64,000 nucleotides of DNA from Octopus vulgaris (lineage: Eukaryota), in assembly GCA_951406725.2 (NCBI GenBank), contig OX597817.1, positions 61,628,001 through 61,692,000 of the forward strand, read 5' to 3'. The position numbers and the translations under genes are program-made. Position 1 is the first letter of the stretch, and each line of letters opens with the position of its first letter. Shown piece by piece: positions 28,132 through 49,745 of the stretch. The notes below the pieces were generated by a model. That model was not told where the DNA came from. It ran no database searches and saw only the letters and a program-made list of their open reading frames with translations.

Positions 28132-28690
28132 ATGTTTTGTTGTACTGGTTGTAGGAAATCTAAATCGAAGAAGATTTTGCAAGTAACACCAGACAACAAG
28201 AATTCTGAAAATCCAATTTACAAGTCAGGAAACGGAGTTGAGCCACCAATTGTTGAGAAAGTAGAACTTGACCTTCAAACAAAACGAGCCAGCGTAGAAA
28301 CAACAGACATCAAAAAAGAGACTGCACCTGATCCAGTTGCATCTTCTAAAGAAAATACTTCTACCTCAGAAGCAAAGGCTAAAGAATTTAAACAGGACAT
28401 TGTGAAAAAGCCCAGCAGTGAACAACCAGTTTCCTCTCTACCGTTTGCAAGTGAACTTATTAAAGCATCACAAAAAAGAGAAAAACGTATTGCCAGTGAG
28501 CTATCCAACGCTCTTGCTATTGCTGCTGAAGAAAGAGCTCGACTCAATTCTGGCGAAATGTCAGCTGAGCAAATGATAAAATCAATTGAGCGTCTTGAGA
28601 CGGCGGTGGTGAGCCTGGAACGGGTATCCACACGGCTTGAGACTATTGCCAACACTTCCGGAAAGTTAGTTAATGCAGGCAACTCTGAAG
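28132..28690 (+). CDS. CAP: Putative first coding exon of adenylyl cyclase-associated protein (CAP/Srv2 family), with a long N-terminal extension; partial gene
   Basis: Non-repetitive ORF starting AAAATG (MFCCTGCRKSKSKK); internal ATG 28558 begins MSAEQMIKSIERLETAVVSLERVSTRLETIA, resembling the CAP N-terminal RLE coiled coil (human CAP1 LVERLERAVGRLEAVS); strong donor GAAG|GTAAGA, phase 1. Downstream CAP exons not found in the window. Confidence 0.68.
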
Positions 28691-30150
28691 GTAAGAAATT
28701 AAATTTCTCTTTTTATCCCCCCACCTCCTTTCTTTATTATTAGGAAAAGATCAAGTGCTTCCAGTTGACCTCAAAGAACTTTTCCCAGCTAAGATTCACT
28801 GAAGTTCCCACATCTCTTTCTAACAGCTAAGTAAACTTAAGTATTACAGAAATAAGTTTTCGGTCCAAATATTCAACAGAACACCTGCAAGACATAAAAA
28901 CTTGTAGATTTATGCCTTATCAGTTCAGCTATTTCACTTCTATATATGGTTGCACTCCAACTTCTAACAGGGCCTCTGCCGTGGTTTCAACACCTTAGGT
29001 CAGCCCTGCAGTGTGTGCCTCCTTTTCTTTTGGCCCTCCACTATGCAACCCCTTCTCTCATCCATACAATGTACACCCACTTCCCTCAATCCTACAGTAT
29101 GCTCCCTCTTCTCCCTGACCCATAGTGTGTGCCCCTTCTCTAATTATTCCCTACAACTTCCCCCAACCATTACCCTCTATCACACTAGCTGAAAACGGCA
29201 CCTGGATATTCTGATTAAACATGAGGTCTATAGTTTTATGCTCATTTTGTGTATCACCAAGTAAATTTCTTATCTGGCATAATTTGAAGCGTTTCATGCC
29301 GTGACTGGACATAACCCCATAAAAGCCTATTATCTACTACAATCTACTAACCCAGTCGTATGTCTTGTTGAGTTTCATGCTTTAGGTTAAATTAAGAAAT
29401 TTTATGTTCAGTTGCTGCATACTCTATTCAGGATTAAAAGTATCTAAACTATTAATTTGTTGGAATAGTGGAATTGTCTTACCATTTTCTAAGTCGTGCA
29501 ATCCTGCTGTAAAACAGCCAGTGTGGCTTATTACTGATCAGGGGCAAATCAAATCTAAAATGGCTATATAGTGCTAGATAATTGGTCTCCGGTTCAAATC
29601 CATTGTTGGCACTGTAATAATGTCATTAGACAGGACACTTAATTTTGGCCACTTCAACCAAGTGATTGTTATCACTCAGTAGAAGTTATTTTTTTATATT
29701 ACCAGGGATGGTCTGGCATCCCTTTCCAAAAGAGATTTTTGCCCAATGCCCTGATATTTTAGCTATCCCTTATGTTAGTTTCCGTAGATGTGATTGATAG
29801 CTCCTTTTAGCAAGGTGACCTAATTAGCAGTGGAGGAGAGTGTTTCAAAGTATAGTAGTCGGAATACGAATCGAAGGGTGGAGTTTAGAAAGCTCTTGAC
29901 TCTATTAGCAACAAAAAAGAAACTCTGTCTCCAATTGAAGTTTGATACTGCATGGGACCAAAATATTAGTATTGAATGCAAAGGATGTACAAAAATTGGA
30001 AATGGATGACGCACGCATGTTTTGCTAGGCATGTAATTTGTGTGTGCATGATTGACAGATGACAAATGAATCGAGAGAAAAACAAGGTGTGAGAGGAAAG
30101 TTCTTAGATGGAGATCGTGTGTTTGAAAGGTGACAGACATGTAAAGAAGT

Positions 30151-30470
30151 CATCATCATCATTTAACATCCACTTTCGATGCTAGCATGGGTTGGACGAT
30201 TTGACTGAGGTCTGGCGAACCAGACTCCAATCTGATCTAGCAGAGTTTCTACAGCTGGATGCCCTTCCTAACGCCAACCACTCTGAGAGTGTAGTGGGTG
30301 CTTTTATGTGCCACTGGCACGAGGGCCAGTTTGGTGATACTGGAAACGGCCACGCCCAAATGGTGCTTTTTACGTGCCACCTGCACAGGAGCCAGTCCAG
30401 CTGCACTGGCAATGACCTCGCTCAAATATTTCACATGCCACGAGTACAAGTGCTAGTAAGGCAATGCAGT
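30151..30470 (-). mobile_element. RTE LINE 3' UTR copy (diverged subfamily)
   Basis: CATCATCATCATTTAACATCC...CTACAGCTGGATGCCCTTCCTAACGCCAACCAC...GGTGCTTTTTACGTGCCAC. Confidence 0.85.
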
Positions 30471-31454
30471 AAAGTGCTAGTAAGGCAACGCCCCAACCAA
30501 TTCAGGGCAAAGACCAAAAAATATGTTGTAAGTTGATGGTACACCATGACACATTTTCACCACGATCTTTCTCTTCCAAGTGGGGTGACCATGCATCTCA
30601 CCCACAGCATCATACCCATTCCTGTCATACTTTAACTTCTGATTATCTGGCATAAAACCACCTCCCTCAATACTGCTCTCCCACCTCAGTTGAGAGATTT
30701 TGTCTTGTGAATTACTTGTTGACTTCACTAGTGCCAGATAAAAAGGACCCAGTACACCCTGTAAAGTGGTTGGTGTTTGGAAGGGAATCCAGCCAGTGAA
30801 AACCTGCTATGGCAGACATTGGAAATTGATGTAGTTCTCTGGCTTGCCAATTCCTGTTGAACTGTCCAACCCATGCCAGCATGGAGAATGGATTCTACAT
30901 GATGGTGATGATGAGGTAATAAAGGGCGATATCAAGAAGCATTCCGGCTGGATTCCCAAAATATCACTGACTCAGACTATGGATATTATCCAAGTAACTT
31001 ATTCTACCCTTAGATCTCCTGCCAGTTGGCTTGTCTTGAATCTGTTTTCTGATTCTTTCCTCTGACAGTCTAACCACATGGCCATAGCTGTGATCTCTTA
31101 TGTAATTCAATATTTCCAAAGGTGTTTACTAAAAACTAAGATTTTCTGTACATCTTTGAATTTTTTTTTTTTTAATTTCCAATCATTATAACAACCATGA
31201 AAAAGAAATTGCATTCTTATGTAACGATGGACCCATTTCATTTCATTCCTTAGGCAACTGTTTCTGTTTGTTTATTTCCATTATAAATGTAGCTTTTCCA
31301 ATGTATTGAATAGAAAGGAATTAACAACCAAATTATTTATTTAAAAAAGCAAAATTTCAAAGACTATCTTTTTCTCATAAACATACTGATTAAAAATAAA
31401 TTGCATGATCATCAACCCATGTGAGTGTAGAGAATGGATATGATGAAGTGGTCA

Positions 31455-31850
31455 TCATCATTGTTTTAATGTCCTCTTCTCCATGCTTGCATGGCTGAGA
31501 TGGAGTTTGTTGAGGCAGATTTTCTACTGGTGGATGCTCTTCCTGTCATCAACCCGTGCCTGTTTCCGAGGAAGGTAATATTTTCCCCCCGTGACCAGAC
31601 ATATTTTCACAGGACATTGGAAATGAATGACACTGCTTGTATAACAAGGATAATCCTTTACAACTGTTACACCATGCCAAATCAAGGACACACACACACA
31701 CATATGATGGATTTTTTTTTTTAGTTTCCATCAACGAAAAATCCATTCTGAAGGCCTTAGTTGGTATGGGACTACTGTAGACACATGTTCTAGGTGCCAA
31801 GCAGTGGGACTGAACTTGGAATCATGTGGTTGGGAACCACACACCTGTGC
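31455..31850 (-). mobile_element. Head-1 SINE with RTE-type tail
   Basis: Reverse-complement match to 35622-36063; GTGGGACTGAAC head at about 31804. Confidence 0.78.
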
Positions 31851-34799
31851 CTGCCACTATCTGGGTGGTAAAACACTGCCTCAAAAAATAAACAGATAAA
31901 AAAACATGCAACTCATACCAGCATGGAAAAGCAAACTAAAAATGATGATGATGATCTCCAGCTCCAGAAGTTTCTTTACTATCAGAGCAGACATTCAAGT
32001 AATCAGTGAAGTAAAGAAACTGGATAAAAACAGTGTTTTCGGTTTTCTGTTTTGATTGTTGAATGTGTTGAGTTGGGGGAAATAATGGTTGGGACGATGG
32101 AGTGTAAAAACGGTCTGTGTCGTCACAGAAACCCTTCTGACATTTGTTGTTTACTATCTTCCATCACCTACAAATATTATGCCTTGGTTCTAGAGAATTC
32201 CATCCTTCAAAAACAAACAAAAAAAAAACAGTGGGGTAAAAAAATAAAGCAAAGAAAAAATATGAAACCTCACACACCTACCAAAACCACTGCTATGTTG
32301 ACAACTTTGCTGGATTCCAATTCTCTGTTGAGTTGCTGACCAATTGCAGTTAATTGAAGAATTGGACATTGGTAGAAGCTAGTCCTGTCCATTATGTCTG
32401 TGTATTGTCCAGCCATCATTACAAATTATATGGGTATAAAGTAGTTCCAGTGCTGAAGACAAAACACACCAGTTGGTGCCAGACTCTGTGCTGCTTCTTT
32501 GAAAAAGTGTTAATGTCTCTTAATTTGCTAAGAGCTTCAAAAGTCAGTACTTAACTGTGCATTTGTGGAACTAGGTAGATAAACATTGCTCACTCTCTGT
32601 TGTCACTATTCCCAGTTCTCTCCCTCACACATTATCACCATCAGCGTCTTTCTTTTCCAACTGGGTTAACTATGTCTCTCCCTGACGGCAAGACACCTGT
32701 TCTTGTCTCTCTATCACACTTTAGCCTCACATCACCTGGCTAAAACCTCCCACTTTCTTCTATGCTACTCCCTCCCCCTTGGTTTTGTCTTGTTACTAAG
32801 CGACTTTACTTGTGCCAGTGCTTTGTAAAAAAGTACACTCTGTGGAAGTGGTTAGTATTAAAAAGGGCACCCAGCTATAGAAACCATGTTAAAGGAGACA
32901 CTGGAATATGGTGCAGTCCTCTGGCTTTCCAGTTCTTGTCAGATTGTCCAATCCACACCAACATGGAAAAAAAATGTTAAACGATGATTATGATTGCTAA
33001 CCTGTTTGCTAAATGGATTGAGACAAAATATACTTGCCAACAATGCCTGCAGGGAGTTTGAACTTAGTTCGGTCAGTGCCATATCTTAGATTATTTTGTT
33101 TTATTTATGTCAACAACACCACCATACCATTCAACAATATCCTTTCTTTATTTGCCATCAACTCTCCTTTATAATGCATAGTGGAAAATGGCTGCTCATA
33201 GAATGTGTAGTCTTAATCTTTAGCCCCATGGAGAAGGAGCACGGAATCTTAGTGCTCCACTGATATTGGTTAGAGAAAAGGGAACATGGTAGGAAACAGA
33301 AAACAGGGTCTTAACATTTACTTAACTGCAATGGAACTTGGAGTTTCTAGAAAATTTGTAAAGATTTTATATTTGTATAGTTTGAAGAGCAAAAGTGATA
33401 GTAATGATTTCAGACTCTCTCCAACTGGAAGCTGAATATCACAGATATGGCTACAGTACTAAAGGTAGTAAAAAAAAGTTGGTATGAGGAAAATTTGGCT
33501 ACTGTTGATAATAATTATTTACTCAGTAAATTTTCTGATGTCAACCATTTCAAAATAACTGTTCCAAAGTTTCTACATTGCTCTTAGAGTTTATAGAATG
33601 TCTTGATTGTGGAACCTGATTTGCAAGTTAGTAATCCATTTGCAAACTGCCTCAGATATGGCCAAGTGAATTGTTTTTATGACCTGACTTTATTTAGCTT
33701 CTGCTCAAAGGATACTACATCAAAAATAGGATAGTTTGTGAGTATAACGATATATACAAATGGAAGTATTAAGTGCTGTTATAATTACAAGAACTTGTAA
33801 TTATTGACGTAATTAATAATTTCTGTGTAATACCTTATATGGTATTTGTGTATTCATGGGTGTATATATATATATGAATTTATACAGACACTCATTGTCA
33901 TTTTCCATCCTGTTTTTTTCCATGCTAGCATAAACACACACACACACCAATCAACAATACATGTAACATACATCACAAACACAGATTCCTACAATCTTGT
34001 TTGTTTCTTTTATAACAAAACAATGGGGAAATACTCTCTACAGGTGAACTTTGACTCACCCTCCCTCTCTCCCTCCATCACAATATATCCTTAATATTCC
34101 AATGGTAGAAATGAAAGGGTGTTTCGGTTTTCAATCCTATCCTATAGGTTCTAATTACAGTTAAATGAAAACACGGTTTGTCCATCTTGATAGAGTTTTG
34201 AGTCATATTGGTACACTTAATCCAGAGACTCATACTTCAGTAACACTTGAGTGCTAACGAAAAAAATAGTTCTATATATGTATATATCATCATCATCATA
34301 ATGTCCACTGTTTTCATGCTGGCATGGATTGGATGGTTCAACCAGAACCTGCGGGCCAGAGTTCTGCACCAAGCTCCATTTGTCAGCTTTAGCATGGTTC
34401 CTGCAACTGGATGACCTTCCCAATGCTGACCACTTTACAGAGTGAACTGAATGCTTTTTAAAGGGCTTTAGCTCTAGTGAGGTCCAGCAACTTGTATGAC
34501 AAAACCCTTCTGGTGAGTGGAGGGAATGGTATTGAGGGGAGAGGCTTTATAGCAGGTAATGGGAGTGGTGTCGAAACGGGTGGATTTCTGTGGAGGCGGT
34601 ACATGGTTACCCCAGTTGGAAAAGAAAGAGGATGGTGTTGAAGATGGGTCAAGGCATCCCCTCAAGTTACAGGAAGATCTATTTTCCTGTAAAACAATAT
34701 CAACCTCATAAGGATGAATGGCAGAATTAACCTGATGATGATTTCAAGTCACAACACTAAGAGTTGACAAATAACAAAGCATTTTCTCAAATTCTACCA

Positions 34800-35090
34800 A
34801 TCATCATCATCATTGAACATCCGTTGTCCATGCTGGCACAGGTTGGGCAGGTTGGGCAGCTGGTAAGCTGGAAGGCTGCACCAGACTCCAGTCTGATTTG
34901 GCATGGTTCTCTATGACTGGATGCCAGTATCTGCCATGACTGCGATTTTGCTTGGCTTGATGGGTCTTCTTCTCAAGCATGACATAATACCAAATGGTCT
35001 CAGTCACTTTCTCTCTGTGAGGTCCAGCGCTCGAAAGGAACTCACTCACTTTCCCTCTGTGAGGTCCAACGCTCGAAAGGTGCTCTTTAC
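34800..35090 (-). mobile_element. Internally deleted RTE 3' fragment with a 42-bp tandem duplication
   Basis: (ATC)n tail and CACCAGACTCCAGTCTGATTTGGC; duplicated CTCA(G/C)TCACTTT..CTCTGTGAGGTCCA(G/A)CGCTCGAAAGG at about 34999-35080. Confidence 0.7.
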
Positions 35091-35621
35091 ATGCTCATCA
35101 TTGTTTAATGTCTTCCTTCCATGTTGGCATGGGTTGGAGGGTTTGACAGGAGCCTGCACCAGACTTCTGTGTTTGTTTTTCACAGCTAGATGCTCTTCCT
35201 AACACCAGCCACTCCACAGAGTGCCACTGCCTCAAAATATATTTAATCATGAGAGTCTCTATTATATTTTGTAGCAGATGAATAAAAGCATACTTAATGC
35301 ACGGAGCAGTTGAACATTGAAGTGAAATGTATAATGTGTTGAGGAAAAAGTCTTCTCAGCCCAGGACATCTGTTTACCAGTATTTATGGGTGACAACTCC
35401 AGACATGTTTTTGGATGTTTGAAATTTAGCAAAAGTATGACCTTACTGCAGCTTGATAAACTGATAGCAAACAAATTAATAAGTGAGTGGACAGAAGTAA
35501 AGTTTGAAGGTATTAAAACTAAATTTGTTTAGAAATTATATAGTTTGAGATGACATCTTCTTGATGAACAATAGGTAAGTGCGTTAAAATGTTGAAGTAA
35601 GCTAAAATAATGTAGTGAGAA

Positions 35622-35767
35622 AAATGGTGAAGAAGCTTACTTCCCAAATTCTTGGTTTTGAGTTCAGTGCCACTGTGTGGCACTTTGGGCAAGTATCTTC
35701 TACTCTTGCCCTAGATTGCTCAAAGTTGTGTAAATGGACTTGGTTAGTGGAAACAGTAAGAAGCTCA

Positions 35768-35808
<41 letters not shown>

Positions 35809-36063
35809 TGTGTTCATATGTGTATGAATGTATCTCTTGATATCATGGTTGTAAATGAGTATTGCTGCTTTACAAGCAATGTTATTCATTTCTGCTATTC
35901 TGCTGCACACGTCTGGCCATGGGGAAATATTACTTTGCTGGGAAATAGGTGAGGGTGGGTGACAGGAAGTGCATCCAGCCATAGAAAATCTGCTTTGATA
36001 AATTGTGCCTAATCCATGCAAGCATTTAAAAGTAGACATTAAAACAAGAATGATGATGATGAT
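35622..36063 (+). mobile_element. Head-1 SINE with RTE-type tail
   Basis: GAGTTCAGTGCC head, internal (CA)n, GACAGGAAGTGCATCCAGCCATAGAAAATC...(TGA)n tail. Confidence 0.82.
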
Positions 36064-36835
36064 TTCTGAATTTCTTTCAAACTCATATTTTACAAAGGAA
36101 ATTTTAAGTCCAGTTTCATCAACTAAATTCAGATTTTAACTTGAATGTGTGCATGTGTGCATTCATATATTTTACCAACCCCATAACTTTGCATTTCGGT
36201 TGGAATAAGTAATTAATACTCCATAATTAATGCTGTTGTTGTTGTCGTCGTCCTAGGCACAAACGTAACTGCAGTAAAATCCAAACTCTAAGGAAAATGC
36301 TGATAGTCTACATTGATATTAGAATGGTTTTCTTTTATAACAACAGTTAATGCATCCAGCAGCTGTGAGAGTTTATAGATCCTTCTCTCGTTAGATCAAT
36401 TATATGTAATAGTAGCATACTTTTATGAGAGAGTTTCCAACCAGCTGTGGCTTAGAGACTATTTACTCATTCACTAAGCAAAGAGTTTACAGGCAAAAGA
36501 GGTATTCTGTTATAAATTCCATGATGTGTGTTGAACACGATTATGATGGGTCAATAGGAAACTGGATTAGCAGCCAAGAGACTTGACATTCATAGTTTGT
36601 TGTTGTAAGCACTGGGTATCTTCTTGACGAAGATACTTCACCAAGAATTTATATTTTACGGTATTTGATATACTTGTATTTATCTATTTGGTCCAAATAC
36701 ATGCCACTGGCCACTCTGACTTTTTTCTCTGAACTCTTTTTTGTGCAAATTGTACAAATTACAAATTACCTGGGGCATAAATGTGTCTATTCCTTTTTTT
36801 GTATAAGTCTAAAGTCCATTGGCTGCTTAAGGTAG

Positions 36836-36880
36836 GTTGTGCTGATGACGCCTATTGAGGCAGAAACTTATGTCCACAAC
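36836..36880 (+). ncRNA. Minimal type I hammerhead ribozyme motif
   Basis: GTTGTG-CTGATGA-C-GCCT-ATTG-AGGC-A-GAAA-C-TTAT-G-TC-CACAAC: perfect 6-bp stem I, intact CUGAUGA/GAAA core, 4-bp stem II, minimal stem III, GUC cleavage triplet at 36872-36874; C/A mismatch at the base of stem II. Confidence 0.72.
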
Positions 36881-37929
36881 TGTCCTCTTATCTGCAGACA
36901 GTAAGCCAATTCTTTCTTTTCCTTAATGGTCTATCAGTTTCAGAAAATCTTTGATACTTGAGGTTATCTCCTCATGTGAAGCTGGTTTTAATTGCCATTT
37001 GGTAATTGATACATCCTCTGGTGGAGATAAATTTAATAAATCAATAATTTTGTATGGTATTTGATATACTTGTATTTGTTCTCGTTGTCTCTAGTTCAAA
37101 GCCATAAGCAATGGCAGCAGCAGCATTGGTTTGTTGGCATACAGTGCTAAGTTGAAGACTTCTTCCTGTAGTAAAACTTCACTTTCAACTGAGCATCAAG
37201 TAGATTCGTTTCTCATCCAGAAAATCAATCAAAAAGTTTGTCTTTAAGCAACTCAGTACTATGGGAACCAGAGATAATCTCCAATTTCATGGATCTGGAA
37301 GGTTTGCAAAAGGATTAACTTTATCATAAAAAGGTGTCCTTGCTAGGATTAACTTCATTGCATCCCATTCAGGGAGGGTGTTGTGACTTTTGTCATTTAA
37401 ATGCCATGGAAACTGGGTAACCAGTCCTATGAGTCCTTGAACTTAAGACAATAACACCCTGGGGTGATGAGGAAACTACATAGAAGCTTCTCGATGGGTT
37501 CCCTGTTCCCATTTGCTGTCATGTTAAAGCAAAAGGTTTACAGCCACAAAAAGTGGAGCAGTGTTGAATTAAAAAAGAAGGAAAAAATTGCAGCATTTAA
37601 TATTCTCTTTCTGTATTTGGTGTTCAGCCATGCATGGGTTGACCAGGGTCAATAAAATCAATACCAAAGGTTTTGTTGATGAAATCAATCAATAAGCATG
37701 AACAGTGGAAGTCATTTTATTATTTATTGGGAGGTTGACATTCAACAATCGATCACAGTTGGATTTGCAATCTGAACTCAGATCAATACAGTTCAATATT
37801 GTAAGGAATTGAGTCCAATTCTCTAAAAAAGAATAAATTGTGTCAAGTGTGGGTATGAAAAACTTGCATGTGGAGAATCCTATCAGTCTTGGAACAAAGA
37901 AAATGGTAAATATTTTGTTTGCCTCTTCA

Positions 37930-38265: not shown

Positions 38266-38349
38266 CAGTCAACTCACACATGAAACATTTTCAGGACTTG
38301 AACATGGAACTATCAAGTGGAATAATTACATATTCACATTGCTTTGAGT

Positions 38350-39434: not shown

Positions 39435-39840
39435 CATCATCATCTTCATTTAACGTCCGCTTTCCATGCTAGCATGGGTTGGACGGTTCAACTGGGGTCT
39501 GGGAAGCCAGAAGACTGCACCAAGCCCAGTCTGATCTGGCAATGCTTCTACAGCTGGATGCCCTTCCTAACGCCAACCACTCCGTGAGTGTAGTGGGTGC
39601 TTTTTACGTGCCAGATGGGGCTGGCAAACGGCCACGGTCGGGTGGTGCTTTTTATGTGCCACTGGCACGGGGGCCAGGCGAGGCTGGCAACGGCCAAGAT
39701 CGGATGGTGCTTTTTACGTGCCACCAGCACAGAGGCCCGTCAGGGCGGCGCTGGCAACGGCCACATTCGGATGGTTCACTTACATGCCACCGGCACTGGT
39801 ATCACAGCTACAATTTCCATTGATGTTGATCGATTTCGAT
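39435..39840 (-). mobile_element. RTE LINE 3' UTR copy, inverted relative to the adjacent long copy
   Basis: Reverse complement of about 42245-42652. Confidence 0.9.
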
Positions 39841-39859
39841 TTATATATATATATATATA

Positions 39860-42128
39860 TCAGGGCCAAATGGCTGCCCAGAAGAAGACCAGCTCGGAAG
39901 AGAAGGGTCTGGAAACTTAAAGATCCTGCAAATGGACGGAGATTTAGAGACGTCCTACTCGAAGCTTTCGACGAAATAGAAGGGGATATAGCATCACATA
40001 ATGTGGAAGCCAACTGGAGGTTTCTACGGGACAATCTGCTGAGAGCCACTGACCAGATCTATGGATGGAGCAAAGTCCCATCTCGACCCAGGGTAACGTG
40101 GTGGTGGAACAATGTTGTAGACAGGGCTATTAGAGACAAGAGACAGGCTTGAAAGGATTGGAAGAATGGCGGTAGTAGGGAATTGTATCAGACTGTGAAA
40201 AGGGAAGCTAGGAGACAGGTTTACTTAGCCAGAGGGGAAGCTGATAAGAAAAAATTTGCCAATGTTCTGCGCCGTGAAGACCTAAGACTTGAAGTATTTC
40301 GTGCTGCAAGACAGTGTGTGAGGGAGAATCGTGATGTGGTAGGAGAGAAATGTGTTCGCATGGATGATGGTTCACTTGCGCTAAATGAGGATGCAGAGAG
40401 AGGTTTGGAGATGCCACTATGAAAGGTTGCTCAACAAAAAAAATGAATGGGAGAAAGAGAGTCTGCCGAATGTCGACCCAACTGAGGGACCAGCTATCCG
40501 AGTTGGTAGTTAAGGCAATTAGAAGCATGAAGACAGGGAAAGCCCCAGGCCCATCAGGAATTACTGCAGAGATGCTCAAAATATCTGGCAGTATAGTCTA
40601 GTCACCCGTATAGTTAACCAGGTGATACATGAAGGAGTCATACCCAATGACTGGTGTAGTAGCATAATAGTCAACTGCTACAATGGTAAAGGTGACGCCC
40701 TAGATACAAGTAATTACAGAGGTATCAAGCTGTTGGATCAGGTAATGAAGGTTACGGAAAGGGTCATAGCCCAACTGATTAGGGAGAGAGTCAACCTGGA
40801 CGAGATGCAGTTCGGTTTCATGCCAGGGAAAATCACCACCGATGCCATATTTCTGGTGAGACAGCTGCAGGAGAAATACCTAGCCAAAGATAAACCTCTG
40901 TACCTGGCTTTCGTTGATTGGAGAAAGCCTTTGACAGGGTCACCTGATCCCTTATCTGGTGGTCAATGAGGAAACTAGGGATAGATGAATGGTTAGTGAG
41001 AGCTGTGCGAGCCATGTACAGGGACGCTGTTAGTAAGGTGAGGGTTGGCAACGAGTACAGTGAAGAATTCCAGGTAGAGGTTGGGGTCCACCAAGGCTCA
41101 GTCCTCAGCCCCCTCCTATTTATCATAGTCCTCCAAGCAATAACGGAGGAATTCAAGACAGGATGCCCCTGGGAGCTCCTCTATGCTGATGACCTTGCTC
41201 TAATTACTGAGTCACTATCAGAACTGGAGGAGAAGTTTCTGACATGGAAGCAAGGATTAGAATCGAAGGGCCTTAGAGCTAAAACCAAAGTCCTAATAAG
41301 CAGGAAGGTAGACAAATCACAAACGCCTTCAGGTAGATGGCCCTGCTCGATCTGTAGAAAAGGCGTAGGTAGGAACTCTATAAGATGCACCAAGTGTAAG
41401 CTATGGACACATAAGAGGTGCAGCAATGTAAAAGGAAGGCTAACTAGGAAGATAGTTTTTGTATGTGGCAGATGCTCTGGTGCAATAAACACTGAAAATG
41501 TGCAGAGACCATCTTCCTCCACATTCCAGGGAGAAAAACTAGAAATAGTTGATAGTTTCCGTTACCTAGGTGATCAAGTCAGTAGCAGGGGTGGGTGTGC
41601 TGAAAGTGTAACTGCTAGAGTACGAACAGCCTGGGCAAAGCTCAGAGAGCTCTTACCTTTGCTGGTTACAAAAGGCCTCTCGCTCAGAGTAAAAGGCAGA
41701 CTGTATGACACATGTATACGAACAGCCATGCTACGTGGCAGTGAAACATGGGCCGTGACTGCTGAGGATATGCGTAAGCTTGCAAGAAATGAAGCCAGTA
41801 TGCTCCAATGGATGTGTAATGTCAGTGTTCATACCCGACAGAATGTAAGTGCCTTGAGAGAAAAGTTGGACCTAGAAGCATCAGATGTGGTGTGCAAGAG
41901 AGACGTCTACGCTGGTATGGACACGTGGTAAGAATGGATGAAGATAGTTGTGTGAAAAAGTGCCACACCCTAGCGGTTGAGGGAACCTGTGGAAGAGGCA
42001 GACCCAGGAAAACCTGGGACGAGGTGGTGAAGCACAACCATCGCTCTTTAGATCTCACCGAGGAAATGACCAGAGACCGAGACCTTTGGAAGTATGCTGT
42101 GCGTGAGGAGACCCGGCAGGACAAGTGA
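39860..42128 (+). pseudogene. RTE reverse transcriptase ORF, frameshifted, with a C4HC3 zinc finger after the RT
   Basis: Pieces in ORFs 39718..40152, 40183..40422, 40419..40601, 40622..40969, 40966..41931 and 41892..42128; YADD at 41182-41193. Confidence 0.92.
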
Positions 42129-42652
42129 GGCCATAACCCATGGTCTCTACCTGGGACGTAGTCAATCCACCTGTGCATACCTTCCTTCTTGGGACACATA
42201 ACTCTACTTGTGAAGACCTGTTGAGGCAAGTGAAAATCAAAATTAACATCGATCAACATCAATGGAATTTGTAGTAGTGATACCAGTGCCGGTGGCATGT
42301 AAGAGAACCATCCGTAGCCAGCACCGCATTGACTGGCCTCCATGCCGGTGGCATGTAACAAACACCATCCAATCATGGTCGTTGCCAGCCTCGCCTGGCC
42401 TCCGTTCCGGTGGCACATAAAAAGCACCATCCGATCGTGGCCGTTTGCCAGCCACCCCTGGCACCTGTGCAGGTGGCACGTAAAAAGCACCCACTACACT
42501 CATGGAGTGGTTGGTATTAGGAAGGGCATCCAGTTGTAGAAACACTGCCAGATCTGACTGGCCTGGTGCAGCCTTCGGGCTTCCCAGACCCCAGTTGAAC
42601 TGTCCAACCCATGCTAGCATGGAAACTGGACGTTAAACGATGATGATGATGA
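39860..42652 (+). mobile_element. RTE-clade LINE, 5'-truncated, about 2.8 kb
   Basis: RT motifs GKAPGPSGITAEML, NYRGIKLL, QFGFMPG, GVHQGSVLSPLLF, LLYADDL and FRYLG; C-terminal RRLRWYGHV and GRPRKTW; 3' UTR with (TGA)n tail; begins right after (TA)n. Confidence 0.95.
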
Positions 42653-42699
42653 TATCAAAATTAACAGAATGAGATAAAAATCCAAGGCTGTGAAAGATT

Positions 42700-42775
42700 T
42701 CAGAACATTTACAAAGAGAAGGTTTAGTTGCTTCCGGGATATTTTATATATCCCTTCATCAGAGACGGTGCGAGA
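42700..42775 (-). repeat. Penelope-LTR-like hammerhead remnant
   Basis: Minus strand CTGATGA-A-GGGATAT-ATAAA-ATATCCC-G-GAAG; perfect stem II, but GAAA is mutated and stem I is not evident. Confidence 0.45.
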
Positions 42776-43129
42776 AGATATGAAATAGAGAGTGAAGTGG
42801 AGGAATGAAAACAGATGTGATATATGCAGGGATATTGTATCTGCAGTTCCATTATTTAAGCAGAATGGTATACATAGAAGTTTCCTGTACTTCGTGTGTA
42901 AGTTCCAATAGTATTTAAAATTGGTCATTTTAAGCATAGAGTTTGTAAACCATGTTATTGGAGTACAGCATGTCGTTTCCAAATTTCTGGCACAGTGAAT
43001 TATGTCATGGTGCTGTTTTTCTCACAAACAGTGCCCAACTGACCCTACGAGTCAAACAATGCGCATATATGAAACTTGAAATATAAAATGGCAACAGTTT
43101 ACTCATTGCACCCTGTGTGTATGTGTATG

Positions 43130-43170
<41 letters not shown>

Positions 43171-43174
<4 letters not shown>

Positions 43175-43356
43175 GGAGAATTCACGAAAAAAACAAAAGA
43201 TGAAGACAGGTGGTGTAGAAAACAAACAGATGTATTAGTATAATGCTCAGGAATTGAAAAAACTCTTTTATTTTTCGAGCCTACGCTCTTCCACAGAAAG
43301 GAACACAGAAAGAAATAAGGAGAGAAAAAAATGTGTGTAGTGGCTACTGATCTATC
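43171..43356 (-). repeat. Short interspersed repeat between (TA)n tracts, Penelope-LTR-like
   Basis: Minus strand CTGTGGA-A-GAGC-GTAG-GCTC-GAAA hairpin motif; (TA)n on both sides. Confidence 0.45.
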
Positions 43357-43361
43357 ATATA

Positions 43362-43400
<39 letters not shown>

Positions 43401-43560
43401 TTAATGGTTATTGACAATTTTTTGTTTCGGCGTATCTGGCATTAGAATTTCTCTTCTGCCCTTATCTTGTAAATTATGTATAAATTTGACCTTTAAAGGC
43501 ATTTTTTTATATGCTGGCCATTGATAAAATTTTTTTCCCGAAAAAAATTTTATCCTATAT

Positions 43561-43615
<55 letters not shown>

Positions 43616-44120
43616 CACACACACATACTCTTAACTCATTCCATCCCACAACTGGAAAGTGATGTACATTTAGTTAGTATGAAATTACTGTTGATGTTCA
43701 TGGTGGTGGTGGTGGTGTAGCATAGACATTGCACCTGTAATTGTTGGTGTCTATGGAGTGTCTTGAGTGCAGCCTGTGTTATTTTATCTGTTGTAAAATT
43801 AGTGCTGTGGCAGCAAGCATGAAATTAAGGGTGTCGGGGATGGAGTTAGGGGTGGAATGTCTCAGATTTATTTATTTTAGGTCATTTGAAATTCTATTTC
43901 ACCAAAGTTTTATGTATTTTCTCCACTTTCGCTTGACTCTCTCTCATTGAAGCATTTTTATGAAACAAATGGCCCTCAGTGTTATACCTGGTGCTTATTT
44001 TGTTGGTCTCTTTTGCCAAACCGTTAAGTTACAGGAAAGTAAACAAACTAAAACCAGTTAAGTAATGGGGGACAAAGACACTCACTCATATATACATATA
44101 TGTATTACGTCATCTATCTA

Positions 44121-44502
44121 TTTTACTCTTTTACTTGTTTCAGTCATTTGACTGCAGCCATGCTGGAGCACCGCCTTAGTCGAACAAATCGACCCCGGGA
44201 CTTATTCTTTGTAAGCCCAGTACTTATTCTATCGGTCTCTTTTGCCGAACTGCTAAGTGACGGGGACGTAAACACACCAGCATCAGTTGTCAAGCAATGC
44301 TAGGGGGACAAACACACACACATACATACATATATATATATATATACATATATACGACAGGCTTCTTTCAGTTTCCGTCTACCAAATCCACTCACAAGGC
44401 ATTGGTCGGCCCGGGGCTATAGCAGAAGACACTTGCCGAAGATGCCACGCAGTGGGACTGAACCCGGAACCATGTGGTTGGTTAGCAAGCTACTTACCAC
44501 AC
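44121..44502 (-). mobile_element. Head-1 SINE with CR1-like tail (young copy, extreme 5' end missing)
   Basis: Very similar to 2203-2569; head stops at CTTACCACAC, next to an RTE tail. Confidence 0.92.
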
Positions 44503-44507
44503 ATATA

Positions 44508-45430
44508 TCATCATCATTGTTTAATGTCTGTTTTCCATGCTGGCATGGGTTGGATGGTTTGACCGGGGTCTGGGAAGCCAGGAGGCTGCACCAGGCTCCA
44601 GTCTGATCTGGCAGTGTTTCTACAGCTGGATGCCCTTCCTAATGCCAACCACTCCGTGAATGTAGTGGGTGCTTTTTACGTGCCACCAGCACAGGTGCCA
44701 GGGGAGGCTGGCAGCGGCCACAATTGGTTGGTGCTTTTTATGTGCCACTGGCACAGGTATCACAACTACAATTTCCATTTAATTTTTATTTTGATGTTGA
44801 TGTACTTGACTCAATAGGTCTCCTCAAGCACAGCGGGTTGCCCTACGATCCAAGGTAAGCACAGCAGGCCGTCCTGCGAGCCATGAACTCATTTAATTTG
44901 TCGGGTCTTTGCAGTCACAGCATATCTCCAGAGGTCTCAGTCTTTCGTCATTGCCTCTGTGAGGCCCAATGTTCGAAGGTCATGTTTGACCACCTCATCC
45001 CATGTCTTCCTGGGTCTACTTCTACCCCGGATTCTTTCAACTGTTTGGGAGTGGCACTTCTTCACACATCTCTCCTCATCCATCCATAGTGCATGACCAT
45101 ACCAATGCAGCGTCTCTCCTGCATGCCACATCCGATGCTTTTTATGTCCAACAGTTCTCTCAGGACGCTTACACTCTGTTGTGCATGGACACTGATATTA
45201 CACATCCAGCGGATCATGCTAGCTTCATTTCTTTTGAGCCTACGCATGTCCTCCACAGTCTCGGCCCATGTTTCACTGCCATGAAGCATGGCAGTTCGCA
45301 CACATGCGTCATACAATCTACCTTTCACTGTGAGCGAGAGACCTTTTGTCACCAGTAGGGGTAGAAGCTTTCTAAACTTTGCCTAGGCTATTCTTATTCT
45401 AGTGGTAACACTATCTGAGCATCCACTGCC
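44508..45430 (-). mobile_element. RTE LINE 3' fragment (second subfamily)
   Basis: ORFs 45062..45352 (KGRLYDACVRTAMLHGSETWA) and 44937..45131 (WYGH, RPRKTWDEVV), plus 3' UTR and (ATC)n. Confidence 0.92.
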
Positions 45431-46448
45431 ACATTACGAAAAAAATTTTTTATATACACACACTGATATACGACCTAAATTGGACCCCTTATTCACTGAA
45501 CCTAGAACCATGTTATTGGTAAGCAAACTACTTACTACAAAGCCATACCTGGGAATAAAATCACATGGGAATGGAATCACAACATAATGTGACTATATAA
45601 TAATGACAAAAAAAATGTTAAAAGCAAAAACAAAAAAAAATGTTAATATTTTTATAGTGGTTACGATTGGAAATATTGAATTTTCTGTATATTATTATAT
45701 AATTATATGTTTTTTGTAATTTACGATTAGTGTATGATTTGAGCAGGGATGATTTGGTTGCTATATCTAGTATGTTAAGCTACCATGTAAAGGCTTGTGC
45801 TTTGCTAGTTTGCAGATCTGGAACCAAATCCAGACTTGTAGACTTAACAGTGTCCATGGAGAATCTTCTCTTTTGCCCCATGTCTTTTTCTTTGATTCAT
45901 TCTGACGTTTATCCTTCATATCTCTGAATATGAACAGATTGGTAGCTTTAATCTTTGTGAACCCTGAGGTGACTTAGTTGAATATATGGTAACTTGAAAC
46001 TGAAGAAATTTCCAGTTATGTCCCAATGTCCCCCTGTGATGTGAGTTAAAACAACAACAAAAAGATTAAGAAAAAGTTTATCAGATTTTTAGAACACAGA
46101 TTGCTGTGAAATCAGTTTCCAGCAGTTGTTGGGGGTGAGGGCCACAGTGAAGAGGATGAAACTAAAGTAAATGGAAGTACAACTGTTTTGCATTAAATGT
46201 TAATAGAGATTAGATTAAATGTTACAGGTGTGAGGTGGGTAGTTGTGGTGGGGTGGGGGACCACTTATGATGTAGGATTACCAGAACACCAACCAGACAG
46301 CCAACCAACAAACCAGCCAGCCAGCCAGCCAATTTGTCATAATCTGATGGGTGGTGCCTCTTGTATCTTCTAATTCAAGTTAATCAATTTGTTTATCATA
46401 GCTGTGTTACAATGACACCATCGCACTGATGTCAGTCTCCCTGTGACT

Positions 46449-46455
46449 TATAAAA
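46449..46455 (+). promoter_or_regulatory. Possible TATA box upstream of the Tyr-rich exon candidate
   Basis: TATAAAA in unique sequence, Inr-like TCACATT about 27 bp downstream and CRE-like TGATGTCA at 46427-46434; such motifs are common by chance in AT-rich DNA. Confidence 0.25.
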
Positions 46456-46897
46456 TACCCATACACCTTCGCTCCTCACATTATCTTGCTTAATCATTTT
46501 TATTCAGGTTTTTTTTTGCCTGCTTTAATTTTTTTTGTTTCTTTCCTCCTTTCTTTTATTTATTTCACAAATTATTCTGTTGAAGTCATTTGACCCGTTT
46601 TGTCTGTGATCTATCATTCAGACTCACTGAAGTTTAGATTTCATTTCATCTTGTTTCTTAAAGTAGGAAATTTATTTTTATAATAGCAGTTATGTAATTA
46701 CAGACCAGCAAGTTTTAATTATCCACCTTACTTAATTGTGTTGCAAATTTTCTGCCCAATTACACTCTTCGTATCCATCACATTTATTTCTATATAGTAG
46801 TGTTTGGTGCCAAATAAAGCTCCACAACACACGCATACACTTACACAACAATCTGAATAGTATTTTTGTTTTTGTTTTTATACATCAACCTATAAGC

Positions 46898-46994
46898 ATG
46901 TATCTAAATAACCCTAACATGAATTATTACTATACCCCATACAATTATTCCTATCCGTATTACCAATCGCCAGTATATTATCAACCTGCCACAG
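46898..46994 (+). CDS. Candidate alternative first coding exon, Tyr/Asn/Pro-rich 32 aa
   Basis: AGCATG start, MYLNNPNMNYYYTPYNYSYPYYQSPVYYQPAT, consensus donor CAG|GTGAGT in phase 1; non-repetitive DNA. Confidence 0.5.
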
Positions 46995-47164
46995 GTGAGT
47001 TATCAATTATTCTGTTTTTTTTCTCTCTCTTACTGTCTTATTCTGTTTCAAAGAGTGGTGAGGTGGGGTTCAGTCAAATTTATTCACTGTCTGTGTAACA
47101 CAATATATTTAAGTAATACAGCGTATGCAGGTACATGCTGCACTATATGTATGTAATACAATAT

Positions 47165-47394
47165 GGCAGCGAGCTGGCAGAAACGTTGGCATGCCGGGCG
47201 AAATGCGTAGCCGTATTTCGTCTGTCGTTACGTTCCGAGTTCAAATTCTGCCAAGGTCGACTTTGCCTTTCATCCTTCCGGGGTCGATAAATTAAGTACC
47301 AGTTACGCACTGGGGTTGATGTAATCGACTTAATCCCTTTGTCTGTCCTTGTTTGTCCCCTCTGTGTTTAGCCCCTTGTGGGTAGTAAAGAAAT
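47165..47394 (+). mobile_element. Head-2 tRNA-derived SINE (Meta-like central domain) with Tx1-like tail, young full-length copy
   Basis: GGCAGCGAGCTGGCAGAAACG head, GAGTTCAAATTC B box, TTTGCCTTTCATCCTTCCGGGGTCGATAAATTAAGTACC central block; TATGTATGTAATACAATATG occurs on both sides, possibly a TSD. Confidence 0.9.
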
Positions 47395-47689
47395 ATATAT
47401 GTATGTAATACAATATGTGCTGGTATATATGATGCAATTTATGTAATACAATGTATGACTCCTGTAATGTAATTGCTTGGTTTTCATGCCCTCCACCACC
47501 ATCACATTCTGCAAGCACCTCCCCATCCTGACAAGATGCTTGCACTGTGGTGTGTGTGTGTGTTGCTCAGCAGTTGTTAGCATACAATCCAAGAAGAAAA
47601 TGGTTTGCTTGACATGACACAAAGGTTCTGATTTATGATATCCAAGTTCAAATCCAGCTGAACAGTTTCAATATTGAATGCAATCACGA

Positions 47690-47880
47690 CTCTTCCCGAA
47701 CGTATGGTTTCAGGTTCAGACCCCTTGTGTGGCACCTTGGGCAAGTGTTTTCTATGGCCACCTTGAGCCAACCAAAACCTTGTGAGTAGATTTGGTAGAT
47801 GGAAACACAAAGAAGCCTGCTGTGTGTGTGTGGGGGGGGGGAGGTTCTGTCTCCTTGTCACAACATAGTGTGATTGCTGC
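47690..47880 (+). mobile_element. Head-1 SINE 5' part
   Basis: GGTTCAGACCCC...GGCACCTTGGGCAAGTG...CCTTGTGAGTAGATTTGGTAGATGGAAAC. Confidence 0.75.
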
Positions 47881-47893
47881 AAGATGAGTATTA

Positions 47894-48085
47894 GCATTTT
47901 TTTTCACCTGACAATTATAAATCACCTTTCACACCTGAATTATTCCATCTCTTTCTGTCTCTTTCTACTTCCTAGTCATGCACCCCCTCCTTCCCATAAC
48001 AGTCAACGAAATAGAATGACAGACAGAAATGGAATAATTCAGGTGTGAAATGTAATTTATAATTGTCAAGTGAAGTAAAAATGGC
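47894..48085. mobile_element. MITE-like element with about 60-bp terminal inverted repeats
   Basis: TTCACCTGACAATTATAAATCACCTTTCACACCTGAATTATTCCAT (47903-) mirrors ATGGAATAATTCAGGTGTGAAATGTAATTTATAATTGTCAAGTGAA (-48074). Confidence 0.7.
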
Positions 48086-49360
48086 ATCTTCACAAATAAA
48101 TACATTTGTTGCTTATAATGGTGATGGTCATGGTAAGTGGTGGTGGTGTAGTAGAAGCACTAGTAGATTTGGTAGTGACTTGTAACTTGTGCACTTTCTC
48201 TGCCAGTCACAGGGAAGAAGGTACAAGCTTGGCTGTGTGGTTAAGAAGTTTGCTTGCCAACCACAAGGTTTCAGGTTCAATTTCATTGCATCACATATAG
48301 GATAAGTAGTTTCTAGTAAAGCCTGGGATTGACCACTCTGGATTTACCTGTGAAGTTTGCTACACAGAAACTGTACTGAAACCTCTGTGTGTGTTTATCT
48401 TCACATTGACCCTGCTTGGGCAGCAGTGACAGGCTTATGACATCCCCCCACACACACACCATGACCATCACCACACAAATAAACAATAGTTTTGCTAGTT
48501 TGATGGTTCAATGGCAAGAAGACATGGAATAAAGTACCTTGCCCCCATCCATCTCTAGCTACCCCCCCCCTTATAACCCCCCCAGCTGTGCCATAAACAA
48601 GGGGGAGAAGACATTATTCATTCACACATCTCTACACACCAACTTCTGCTTTTCCTGGTATTTAGTATCTTTTTTGGGGAAAGCTTTAGTGGTTGTCACA
48701 TTTGGCTGGAGGTGGTGCTGGTGTTCTTGGTGACAATAACACACTGACAGGTTGTCTGTATGGTGGCAGTGGTGAGAGGGTGGGGAAGGCTGAGAAAAGG
48801 AATTATGTTGTTGTGGTGGTGGTGGTGGTGGTAATAAGTAATAATGGTGTTGATGATGATGATGGTAGGTGGTTGCTGTCTGCTGTTGTTGGGAATGGTG
48901 AGTGATCTGTTGTTGATTGAATGGAGATGGGGACAGCGGTGGGGAAAGTGTTTTCCTTTCTTTCTTTTTGGTAATATACCCCACACCCCCACACCACTTC
49001 TGGGTGTCTCCTTGTTAGTGTTGTTGTTGGTGTTGAGGGGTCCTAGCAATTTAAATAATGCTGGTTGGAGTAATGGAAGAGGTTGATTGAAGGTGCAGTT
49101 GCCCTAAAGGTAATGATTATGTTCCCAAACTCATTTACTACACAAGTGGGGCTGGAGTGGGGCTGGTCTAGAAAAAAACAGTAGGATTATCAGTCTATAG
49201 CTGCAACAACACTAGTTTGTTTGTGTGTGTGTGTGTGTTGCTTGAGTATCACACAAACCAACTAATCAGGAGCTTAGTGTACTGGACTGTGATGTAAGGG
49301 GCCAGAGAAGTTTGGTGATACTTTTGGTAGAGTTTGAGTTTGTTTTCATGTCACATATAC

Positions 49361-49745
49361 ATGGGTGCCTGTGTTAGTCACAGTCACAAAAAGCCGTTGG
49401 TGGCTGTGACACAGGACGGTGGTGGTGGTGGTGGTGGTGAGTGTGGTCCTGATGGCAGTAGAGTTATTACAGGGAAAAGTCCTGCTGTTTGTGTATCAGA
49501 TTGCAACGACAGCACTGGGACTATTTACTATGAGACTATCAACAACTACCAGGAAAGCCCCCACTACGTAAACAATTACCCCAACTATGATAATATCAAG
49601 GACCACTCCAACGATGACCCCTACTATGACAATAGCAAGAACAGGACTTCTGTCAGTCACGAGTATGACCTCTCCACTGATAAAATCTCGCAACAAAATG
49701 CGGGAACAGAAAACGAGGAGGAGGACAGCGATTATGCAGAAGTAG
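49361..49745 (+). CDS. Candidate alternative first coding exon: N-myristoylation/palmitoylation motif plus acidic Tyr-motif region, 128 aa
   Basis: ATG GGT GCC TGT GTT AGT (MGACVS), complex non-repetitive ORF with raised GC, 10 Tyr in acidic context; donor TAG|GTAGGT at 49745/49746 is phase 1 (an alternative GT at 49742 would be phase 0). Confidence 0.6.

What the first reader, a model, noticed from the sequence alone, without database searches (positions are those of the whole stretch)
28132..49745. Candidate cassette of three phase-matched alternative first exons giving swappable N-termini
Seen: the three most convincing non-TE coding segments are all on +, each starts with its own ATG, and each can end at a good donor in phase 1: GAAG|GTAAGA (28690), ACAG|GTGAGT (46994) and GTAG|GTAGGT (49745). 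I found no internal CAP exon between or after them. Inference: three promoters feed one downstream acceptor. The resulting isoforms would carry (1) a palmitoylation motif plus the RLE oligomerisation helix, (2) a Tyr-rich low-complexity peptide, or (3) a myristoylated phosphotyrosine-adaptor-like head, the last two lacking RLE. This would be an unusual way to retarget an actin-turnover factor. It is the best candidate for a new system here, but the linkage is unproven, and two further exons matching the first one's phase has a 1 in 9 chance.
Basis: partly seen in the sequence, partly recalled or inferred. Interest (0 to 1): 0.75.

Follow-up and report, generated by a model that had tools for sequence, protein, structure and literature searches.

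The report
Octopus CAP gene with swappable heads
The one actin-recycling CAP gene found in this octopus-like genome has several alternative first exons; a rare one, seen in RNA assemblies and likely spliced onto the shared gene body, would replace the usual clustering helix with a head predicted to anchor to membranes and take tyrosine phosphorylation, a CAP form our literature searches did not find described.

Summary
Largely real, with corrections. The three segments sit in the first intron region of the only CAP (cyclase-associated protein) gene found in this genome. The shared phase-1 acceptor is inside the window (63908), not beyond it.

Exon A (28132-28690; Cys-rich head plus RLE helix) joins it in a named Argonauta model and a cuttlefish-like protein.

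Exon C (49361-49745) is covered in 3 of 4 RNA-like runs from separate studies. Each contig stops at 49745 with a 28-letter overhang, which fits the exon-2 contig that begins at that acceptor in the same runs; the overhang letters were not printed. C has a 70%-identical relative that keeps MGxCVS and all 10 tyrosines.

Exon B has the intron's best donor score and a TATA box, but its donor was not seen used: unproven.

Alternative heads at the same junction are annotated in oysters and insects, and a likely palmitoylated CAP isoform is published for Toxoplasma. New variant of a known kind; lipidation, phosphorylation and function are predictions.

The parts
27749..28131 (+). Likely 5' UTR of exon A (start inferred)
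   Evidence: The X3 contig has 940 letters before exon 2. If colinear with A these begin at 27749, inside a CTA repeat.
28132..28690 (+). Exon A coding part: MFCCTGCRKSKSKK head (3 Cys plus basic patch, predicted palmitoylated), charged linker, RLE oligomerisation helix; phase-1 donor
   Evidence: The first 13 residues are identical in Argonauta P0006 and cuttlefish-like P0126, both joined to the HFD exon.
28152..28155 (+). Acceptor inside exon A (tag|G, phase 2) that would cut off the MFCCTGC head
   Evidence: Models P0004, P0005, P0007 and Logan proteins P0008, P0010, P0131 switch sequence at this point. Not tested with RNA of this species.
28558..28690 (+). Internal ATG (MSAEQM...) giving the canonical short RLE-bearing head; first ATG after the inner acceptor
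   Evidence: Matches the start of short mollusc CAPs, e.g. Mercenaria P0023 MSAEQMQQAVSRLE and cuttlefish-like P0009. Use in this species is inferred.
46449..46455 (+). TATAAAA, candidate promoter for exon B
   Evidence: 19 such motifs occur in the window, so this is weak alone.
46898..46994 (+). Exon B coding part (32 codons, 11 Tyr, no RLE); candidate first exon, unproven
   Evidence: Donor ranks 1 of 2356 GT sites in the intron. Low-depth contigs lie upstream and over its 5' part (X2 46605-46759; X1 bins 46725-46954). No contig reaches the donor. Single copy in the genome search.
49303..49360 (+). 5' UTR of exon C, at least from 49303; in-frame TAG at 49328-49330
   Evidence: X2 contig colinear 49303-49745.
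49361..49745 (+). Exon C coding part (128 codons): MGACVS (predicted myristoyl-Gly2, palmitoyl-Cys4), 10 Tyr including YETI, YVNN, YDNI, YDNS, YDLS and acidic DYAEV; no RLE; phase-1 donor used
   Evidence: Contigs of X1, X2 and X8 end at 49745 with 28 further letters and give no cover of the intron beyond. Relative P0179 is 70% identical. Single copy in the genome search.
63908..64000 (+). Shared exon 2 (start of the helical folded domain, EVLSPFVVAY...), phase-1 acceptor; runs to window-equivalent 64011
   Evidence: Contigs of X1, X2 and X8 begin at 63906 (AG plus exon 2); the X3 contig runs through. The remaining CAP exons follow beyond the window to about window-equivalent 106634.

Best explanation
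This is the 5' end of the only CAP (cyclase-associated protein) gene found in the genome, and it likely uses several promoters whose first exons splice onto one phase-1 acceptor at 63908, so that promoter choice would swap the protein's N-terminal head while the actin-working body (HFD, poly-Pro, WH2, CARP) stays the same. Exon A is likely the main form: a Cys-rich, predicted palmitoylated head, a linker and the RLE oligomerisation helix. An acceptor inside A would let an upstream exon supply a fourth head (MFSCFSFGKVFR), or give the canonical short cytosolic form from the ATG at 28558. Exon C is a minor, conserved first exon. Its product would lack the RLE helix, would be held at a membrane by predicted myristate and palmitate, and would carry an unfolded tail of tyrosine motifs that, once phosphorylated, would dock SH2 proteins. 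It would be a CARP-linked dimer with weaker pointed-end depolymerisation but intact ADP-to-ATP recharging, placed at kinase-signalling membrane sites. Exon B is likely (about 0.55) a further tissue-restricted RLE-less head. Shown: the frames, the acceptor, use of C's donor, conservation. Inferred: the identity of C's overhang letters, all lipid and phospho modifications, activity and location.
For: All PF08603 and PF21938 matches in the genome lie at this locus (3 matches each; 10 and 8 candidates scored). A joins exon 2 directly in P0006 (Argonauta model) and P0126 (Logan). C is covered in 3 of 4 runs from 4 studies. Each contig stops at 49745 with exactly 28 more letters, and in those same 3 runs the exon-2 contig starts at AG+63908, the overlap expected for 31-letter words. 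X3 has neither C cover nor the break. In X8 one contig of 1693 letters starts at exon 2, long enough for the whole remaining CDS, so exon 2 is likely its only merge point. No phase-1/phase-1 internal exon candidate was found between C and 63908. Relative P0179 (3 Logan members) keeps MG-CVS and 10 of 10 Tyr at 70% identity, with 4 indels that keep the frame. The AlphaFold2 model of C has mean pLDDT 37 and no helix (4-row alignment, weak). The fourth head is at G000:C4:61609869-61609903 with a phase-2 donor that reads in frame into the inner acceptor. Oyster isoforms switch head at the same split codon (P0158 A|YVVT against P0056 A|DVVT). Loss of the oligomerisation domain leaves dimers and lowers depolymerisation (PMC7543520 section 15; PMC6876575 passages). 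Cys-dependent targeting of a long CAP isoform: PMC6785269 passages.
Against: The 28 overhang letters were not printed, so the C-to-63908 joint is inferred from lengths. The break at exon 2 could also come from retained intron (that end was masked as a repeat). C contig depth is only about 1-3% of the exon-2 contig (contig depth is a poor measure). B's donor was not reached in 4 of 4 runs, and no relative of B was found among stored CAP proteins. No full-length protein with the C head was found (weak evidence). The P0179 contigs read through the donor, and the first 11 residues past it are also 9 of 11 identical, so part of the similarity may be plain relatedness; 10 of 10 Tyr at 73% identity is only p about 0.04. 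The runs are 'RNA?' by guess, though their contigs join CAP exons at GT..AG. There is no proteomic, lipid or localisation data.
Confidence: 0.66

Rival explanations
1. C is a real but functionally idle minor first exon: low-level transcription from an intronic promoter gets spliced to the nearest strong acceptor, and its motifs carry no function.
For: Depth is about 1-3% of exon 2. There is an out-of-frame ATG at 49348 and T at -3 of the ATG. No relative was found outside one cluster of 3 Logan proteins. Sequence just past the donor is similarly conserved.
Against: The frame is open over 128 codons in two species despite 30% change and 4 indels. MG-CVS and all 10 Tyr are kept. It is seen in 3 separate studies and 2 organism labels.
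Confidence: 0.17
2. The cassette is real but B is not part of it: B is an intronic chance ORF, and the working heads are A, the upstream head or short form, and C. This rival concerns B only and is compatible with the rest.
For: No contig reaches donor 46994 in 4 of 4 runs. No relative was found. Chance ATG-to-donor frames are as common on the control strand.
Against: It has the best donor score of 2356 GT sites, unusual non-repetitive Tyr content and a TATA box at 46449. Low-depth contigs lie over 46605-46954 in 2 of 4 runs. All four runs were chosen for holding A, so a tissue-specific B could be missed.
Confidence: 0.45
3. C belongs to a separate transcript: either a single-exon 154-codon gene read through the donor, or an exon spliced to something other than CAP exon 2.
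For: P0179, P0183 and P0184 come from contigs that read through the donor to a stop. The overhang letters were not shown.
Against: In 3 of 3 runs with cover the contigs stop exactly at 49745 and nothing covers 49746-49800. The overhang length fits the exon-2 contig start in the same runs. The frame continues into the HFD.
Confidence: 0.07
4. A, B and C are internal exons joined in series in one long CAP.
For: All three donors share phase 1.
Against: A joins exon 2 directly in P0004, P0005, P0006 and P0126. The X2 contig is colinear from 49303, across an in-frame stop at 49328-49330. No joint between B and C was listed. The TAG before C would be a phase-0 acceptor.
Confidence: 0.03

Closest known systems
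CAP/Srv2 family (Pfam PF21938 CAP_N/HFD, PF08603 CAP_C/CARP; vertebrate CAP1 and CAP2)
   Same: Same body: HFD, poly-Pro, WH2-like stretch and CARP exons downstream; RLE helix in exon A.
   Different: One gene makes several heads instead of two paralogues. C and B lack the oligomerisation domain that PMC7543520 (section 15) calls necessary for CAP function. The octopod RLE helix has a 7-residue insertion.
Toxoplasma gondii longCAP and shortCAP (PMC6785269, passages read)
   Same: One CAP gene with a long isoform whose Cys-containing N-terminal extension sets localisation, and a short cytosolic isoform from an internal Met; this parallels A and the ATG at 28558.
   Different: There it is alternative translation starts and two forms; here alternative first exons, up to five forms, one with a predicted myristoyl and tyrosine-motif head.
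Annotated multi-head CAP isoforms of other molluscs and arthropods (database models)
   Same: Cys-rich long heads in 25 of 189 HFD-bearing proteins examined (gastropods, bivalves, cephalopods, dipterans and unnamed Logan proteins; redundant set). RLE-less heads at the same junction in Crassostrea virginica X4 and Ostrea edulis X6/X7. Aedes aegypti X2 starts within the HFD exon. MGxxxS heads in 7 of 189 (Anopheles, sandflies, Artemia X2).
   Different: None resembles C or B in sequence, and none that I inspected has a long tyrosine-motif head. They are automatic annotations, not studied proteins.
Lipid-anchored phosphotyrosine adaptors and Src-family/G-alpha N-termini (FRS2, LAT/PAG; recalled, no call)
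   Same: MGxCxS dual-acylation-type start; unfolded tail with YxN, YxxI/V and acidic-Tyr motifs.
   Different: No PTB, SH2 or transmembrane part and no sequence homology shown; the head is fused to an actin depolymerase. It works like one at most and is not a member.

Membership tests
CAP/Srv2 | Helical folded domain (PF21938) | tested here: met
   Three exon matches over cut-off just past the window; the domain starts at 63908.
CAP/Srv2 | C-terminal CARP domain (PF08603) | tested here: met
   Three exon matches over cut-off.
CAP/Srv2 | Poly-proline P1 and WH2 region between HFD and CARP | tested here: met
   tblastn of P0006 finds the PPPPP exon and the LKKV exon at window-equivalent 91987 and 98175. 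The WH2 label for LKKV is recalled.
CAP/Srv2 | N-terminal RLE oligomerisation helix, isoform A | tested here: met
   RLE...RLE columns are invariant with other molluscs. It is the best hit of a profile built from 64 non-cephalopod short heads, though weak (E 0.02). Pfam itself gave no hit on exon A.
CAP/Srv2 | N-terminal RLE oligomerisation helix, isoforms B and C | tested here: not met
   No RLE in the sequences and no hit with the profile at E <= 10. They are isoforms of a CAP gene lacking this domain.
CAP/Srv2 | Cofilin-dependent pointed-end depolymerisation and nucleotide exchange | not testable with these tools
   Needs biochemistry.
Alternative first exons sharing one acceptor | Each donor is spliced to the same acceptor: A | tested here: met
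   P0006, P0126 and P0004 are from other species; the X3 contig length fits.
Alternative first exons sharing one acceptor | Each donor is spliced to the same acceptor: C | tested here: met
   Donor used in 3 of 4 runs. The acceptor is inferred from the 28-letter overhang and the exon-2 contig start; the letters were not printed.
Alternative first exons sharing one acceptor | Each donor is spliced to the same acceptor: B | tested here: inconclusive
   Only 5' cover in 2 of 4 runs; the donor was not reached.
Alternative first exons sharing one acceptor | Own promoter and transcription start for each exon | not testable with these tools
   Contigs cannot show starts; needs CAGE or capped long reads.
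Lipid-anchored phosphotyrosine adaptor (FRS2/LAT-like) | N-myristoylation and palmitoylation | tested here: inconclusive
   Only the motif (Gly2, Cys4, Ser6; consensus recalled) and its conservation in P0179.
Lipid-anchored phosphotyrosine adaptor (FRS2/LAT-like) | Sequence homology or a PTB/SH2/transmembrane domain | tested here: not met
   No Pfam hit. One true relative among 4 hits in 1.84 billion proteins.
Lipid-anchored phosphotyrosine adaptor (FRS2/LAT-like) | Tyrosine phosphorylation and SH2 binding | not testable with these tools
   Needs phosphoproteomics or pull-downs.

The most novel reading that the evidence does not exclude
Octopods have built a membrane-anchored, tyrosine-kinase-switched CAP: a lineage-specific first exon swaps the oligomerisation helix for a myristoylated, SH2-docking head, so that clustering at activated signalling sites on the membrane replaces self-oligomerisation as the source of avidity for actin-filament depolymerisation. 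With A, B, the upstream head and the short form, one gene yields a five-way set of differently targeted actin recyclers, part of an overlooked lipid-head system in protostome CAPs.
Probability: 0.3. Interest if true: 0.72.

Novelty: new variant of a known kind. Interest (0 to 1): 0.5.

Why it matters
CAP is thought to need its N-terminal oligomerisation domain for efficient actin turnover (PMC7543520 section 15; PMC6876575). A natural, conserved, spliced isoform without it, carrying a predicted lipid anchor and tyrosine motifs instead, gives a ready test of whether membrane clustering can replace oligomerisation and of how CAP could be coupled to tyrosine kinases. The comparison also shows that Cys-rich, probably palmitoylated long CAP heads are widespread in mollusc and dipteran gene models. 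The 2020 review has no occurrence of 'palmitoyl', 'myristoyl' or 'splic' in its main text, so targeting of animal CAPs by alternative heads looks under-studied. Alternative first exons are themselves ordinary, and C appears minor, which limits the surprise.

Tried and rejected
Pfam on A, B and C alone: no family at E <= 1. Search for longer proteins with the C head: 73 candidates, none significant; weak evidence. The run search listed no holder on record as RNA; 14 of 20 rows were 'RNA?' guesses. I laid 4 of the 20 runs (X1, X2, X3, X8), all chosen for holding exon A. Lack of cover on B's donor, and on C in X3, is not taken as proof of absence. Runs X19 and X20 hold 0.71 of exon A's words, close to the 0.69 expected if the inner acceptor were used, but I did not lay them, so this is no evidence. 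No single laid stretch spanned C and exon 2, so that joint could not appear in a joints table; the loose-end table was crowded by repeats (54 rows not shown). The ESM Atlas gave no result for C or its relative. The N-terminus of P0004 was not in the window and was then found upstream; its first Met is GTG here, so I take the later ATG (MFSCFSF) as the start. Another phase-1 candidate, 35855-35948 (score 5.9), has no support and was not tested with RNA. My RLE profile is weak and mislabels several long dipteran heads as RLE-less, so I do not use its RLE counts for them. The phase-match argument (1 in 9) was rejected as uninformative. Literature searches (top listings only) showed no paper on cephalopod CAP isoforms or a myristoylated CAP. 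Most subscription papers are not searched, a 2013 review was not held, and no supplements were read. A long N-terminally extended C. elegans CAS-1B isoform is recalled, but the search found no paper. Earlier findings of this scan: none. No complex prediction was run, since RLE oligomerisation is textbook.


Full report
Setting. The window is G000:C4:61628001-61692000, + strand, in a 2.8-Gb genome. It is AT-rich and full of microsatellites and retroelement pieces. The closest named protein is an Argonauta hians CAP, so the organism is taken to be an octopod. All matches to CAP_C (PF08603) and CAP_N/HFD (PF21938) in the genome lie just downstream of the window on + (3 matches each). This is the only CAP gene the searches found.

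Checking the observation. A (28132-28690), B (46898-46994) and C (49361-49745) are open ATG-to-GT frames of 559, 97 and 385 nt, all phase 1, with the donors quoted. The first helical-folded-domain exon begins inside the window, ttgcag|AAGTAC at 63907|63908, in phase 1, and all three heads read in frame into EVLSPFVVAY. The rest of the gene follows to about window-equivalent 106634. Phase match alone is uninformative: a donor scan (matrix recalled, score >= 4, >= 20 codons) gave 7 phase-1 frames on + and 5 on the reverse strand as control.

Exon A. The head MFCCTGCRKSKSK is identical in Argonauta P0006 and in Logan protein P0126, which clusters next to a named Sepia protein. Both join the HFD exon directly. 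Cys-rich heads are common in other long CAP models: 25 of 189 HFD-bearing proteins examined, a redundant set with gastropods, bivalves, cephalopods and dipterans. The RLE columns are invariant across five mollusc exon-A proteins, and octopods have a 7-residue insertion in the helix.

Exon C. I laid 4 of 20 listed runs, one from each of four studies. They are 'RNA?' by guess, but their contigs join the CAP exons at GT..AG. In X1, X2 and X8 a contig covers C (49350-, 49303- and 49449-49745), stops at 49745 and has exactly 28 more letters; nothing covers 49746-49800. In these same runs the exon-2 contig begins at 63906, the shared AG plus exon 2. A 30-letter overlap with that contig leaves exactly 28 letters beyond C. 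X3 shows neither C cover nor the break. In X8 the contig that starts at exon 2 is 1693 letters, long enough for the remaining coding sequence. No phase-1/phase-1 exon candidate was found between C and 63908. I put the C-to-63908 joint at about 0.9. The letters were not printed, and the break at exon 2 alone could come from retained intron. Depth is about 1-3% of the exon-2 contig, a rough hint of a minor form. A search of 1.84 billion proteins gave 4 hits, of which one is a true relative, P0179 (3 Logan members). It is 70% identical, keeps MG-CVS and 10 of 10 tyrosines, and has four indels with the frame intact. Against this, those contigs read through the donor and 9 of the 11 residues beyond it also match, so some similarity is relatedness; the tyrosine conservation alone is p about 0.04. 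C has no Pfam match, is single-copy in the genome search and gives no confident fold (pLDDT 37, 4-row alignment).

Exon B. Its donor ranks first of 2356 GT sites in the intron, and it has 11 Tyr in 32 codons without being a microsatellite. A TATAAAA lies at 46449 (19 such in the window), and the region is single-copy. Low-depth contigs lie over 46605-46759 (X2) and the bins 46725-46954 (X1), but none reaches the donor in 4 of 4 runs. No relative was found among the stored CAP proteins. The runs were selected for holding A. B is plausible (about 0.55) and unproven.

Models P0004, P0005 and P0007 and Logan proteins P0008, P0010 and P0131 change sequence just before RKSKSK, at a tag|G acceptor inside A (28154|28155). 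The upstream part of P0004 maps 18 kb before the window. There ATG G000:C4:61609869 opens MFSCFSFGKVF and ends at a phase-2 donor at 61609903 that reads in frame into that acceptor. The first ATG after the inner acceptor is 28558, MSAEQM, the same start as short mollusc CAPs. Up to five heads are therefore possible. The last two rest on other species' models and were not tested with RNA here.

Mechanism. Shown: one gene body, one shared acceptor, use of C's donor, conserved heads. Inferred: separate promoters choose the head. A would be palmitoylated and oligomeric, and the short form cytosolic and oligomeric. C would be myristoylated and palmitoylated (MGxCxS consensus, recalled) and lack the RLE helix. 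Its YxN, YxxI/V and acidic DYAEV motifs resemble SH2-docking sites (recalled). CAP without its oligomerisation domain only dimerises and turns over actin less well (PMC7543520, section 15 read). Monomeric HFD needs more than 20-fold higher concentration, while an artificial dimer is much more active (PMC6876575, passages read). Activity rises with oligomer size (PMC6888645, abstract read). C-CAP would thus be a weaker depolymerase in solution whose avidity could be restored by membrane clustering at kinase-active sites. This last step is a hypothesis.

Comparison with what is known. The gene is a CAP by HFD, poly-Pro and CARP; B and C fail the RLE feature and are isoforms lacking that domain. 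Toxoplasma CAP has a long isoform whose two N-terminal cysteines are needed for apical localisation and a short cytosolic one, made by alternative translation starts (PMC6785269, passages read). Database models show RLE-less heads at the same junction in Crassostrea and Ostrea, including a change of the split codon (P0148, P0158, P0160). HFD-start isoforms occur in Aedes and other arthropods, and MGxxxS heads in 7 of 189 proteins (dipterans, Artemia). So alternative lipid-type heads on CAP recur. A long tyrosine-motif head like C was not seen among them. Six literature searches (listings only) found no description of cephalopod CAP isoforms or of a myristoylated CAP. Subscription papers and supplements were not seen and may bear on this.

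Verdict. New variant of a known kind. Interest 0.5. The boldest reading, a kinase-switched membrane CAP in which clustering replaces oligomerisation, has probability about 0.3.

Noticed in passing
G000:C4:61609869-61609903 (L016:1570-1604), about 18 kb upstream of the window: Fourth candidate first exon, MFSCFSFGKVF with a phase-2 donor AG|GTTGGT, in frame with the acceptor inside exon A; its head resembles mosquito MFSCCRC heads.
   Followed up: partly
window 28588-28641: The octopod RLE helix has one extra heptad (RLETAVVSLERVSTRLE) compared with cuttlefish-like and other mollusc CAPs; it might change the oligomer state.
   Followed up: partly
window 39800-42130 (+) and about 50140-50630 (-): Broken non-LTR retroelement copies in the CAP first intron; 40948-41928 matches RVT_1 and a PHD-like finger. 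Further pieces near 45060-45380 (-).
   Followed up: partly
window 1611-2087 and 60481-60834: ORFs that look like LINE fragments by eye (recalled resemblance); no Pfam hit at E <= 0.01.
   Followed up: partly
window 47155-47400 and 49995-50150: Two copies of a very abundant SINE-like repeat next to exons B and C; summed contig depth above 10^5 in X1 and X2.
   Followed up: no
window 35855-35948: Another phase-1 ATG-to-donor frame (31 codons, hydrophobic, donor score 5.9); probably chance, not tested with RNA.
   Followed up: no
window 49410-49440: The GGT repeat in exon C (poly-Gly) differs by 3 letters in the X2 contig and is not a Gly run in relative P0179; a second GT donor consensus lies at 49436.
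   Followed up: no
Proteins P0004 and P0005: These CAP models lack the poly-proline exon that is present in this genome at window-equivalent 91987-92175 and in Argonauta; probably model errors or gaps.
   Followed up: no
Proteins P0012-P0045, P0057, P0081, P0105, P0188, P0191, P0206: Cys-rich N-termini (MFCC, MLCC, MFSCC) recur on long CAP isoforms across molluscs and dipterans, suggesting an old or convergent palmitoylation head.
   Followed up: partly
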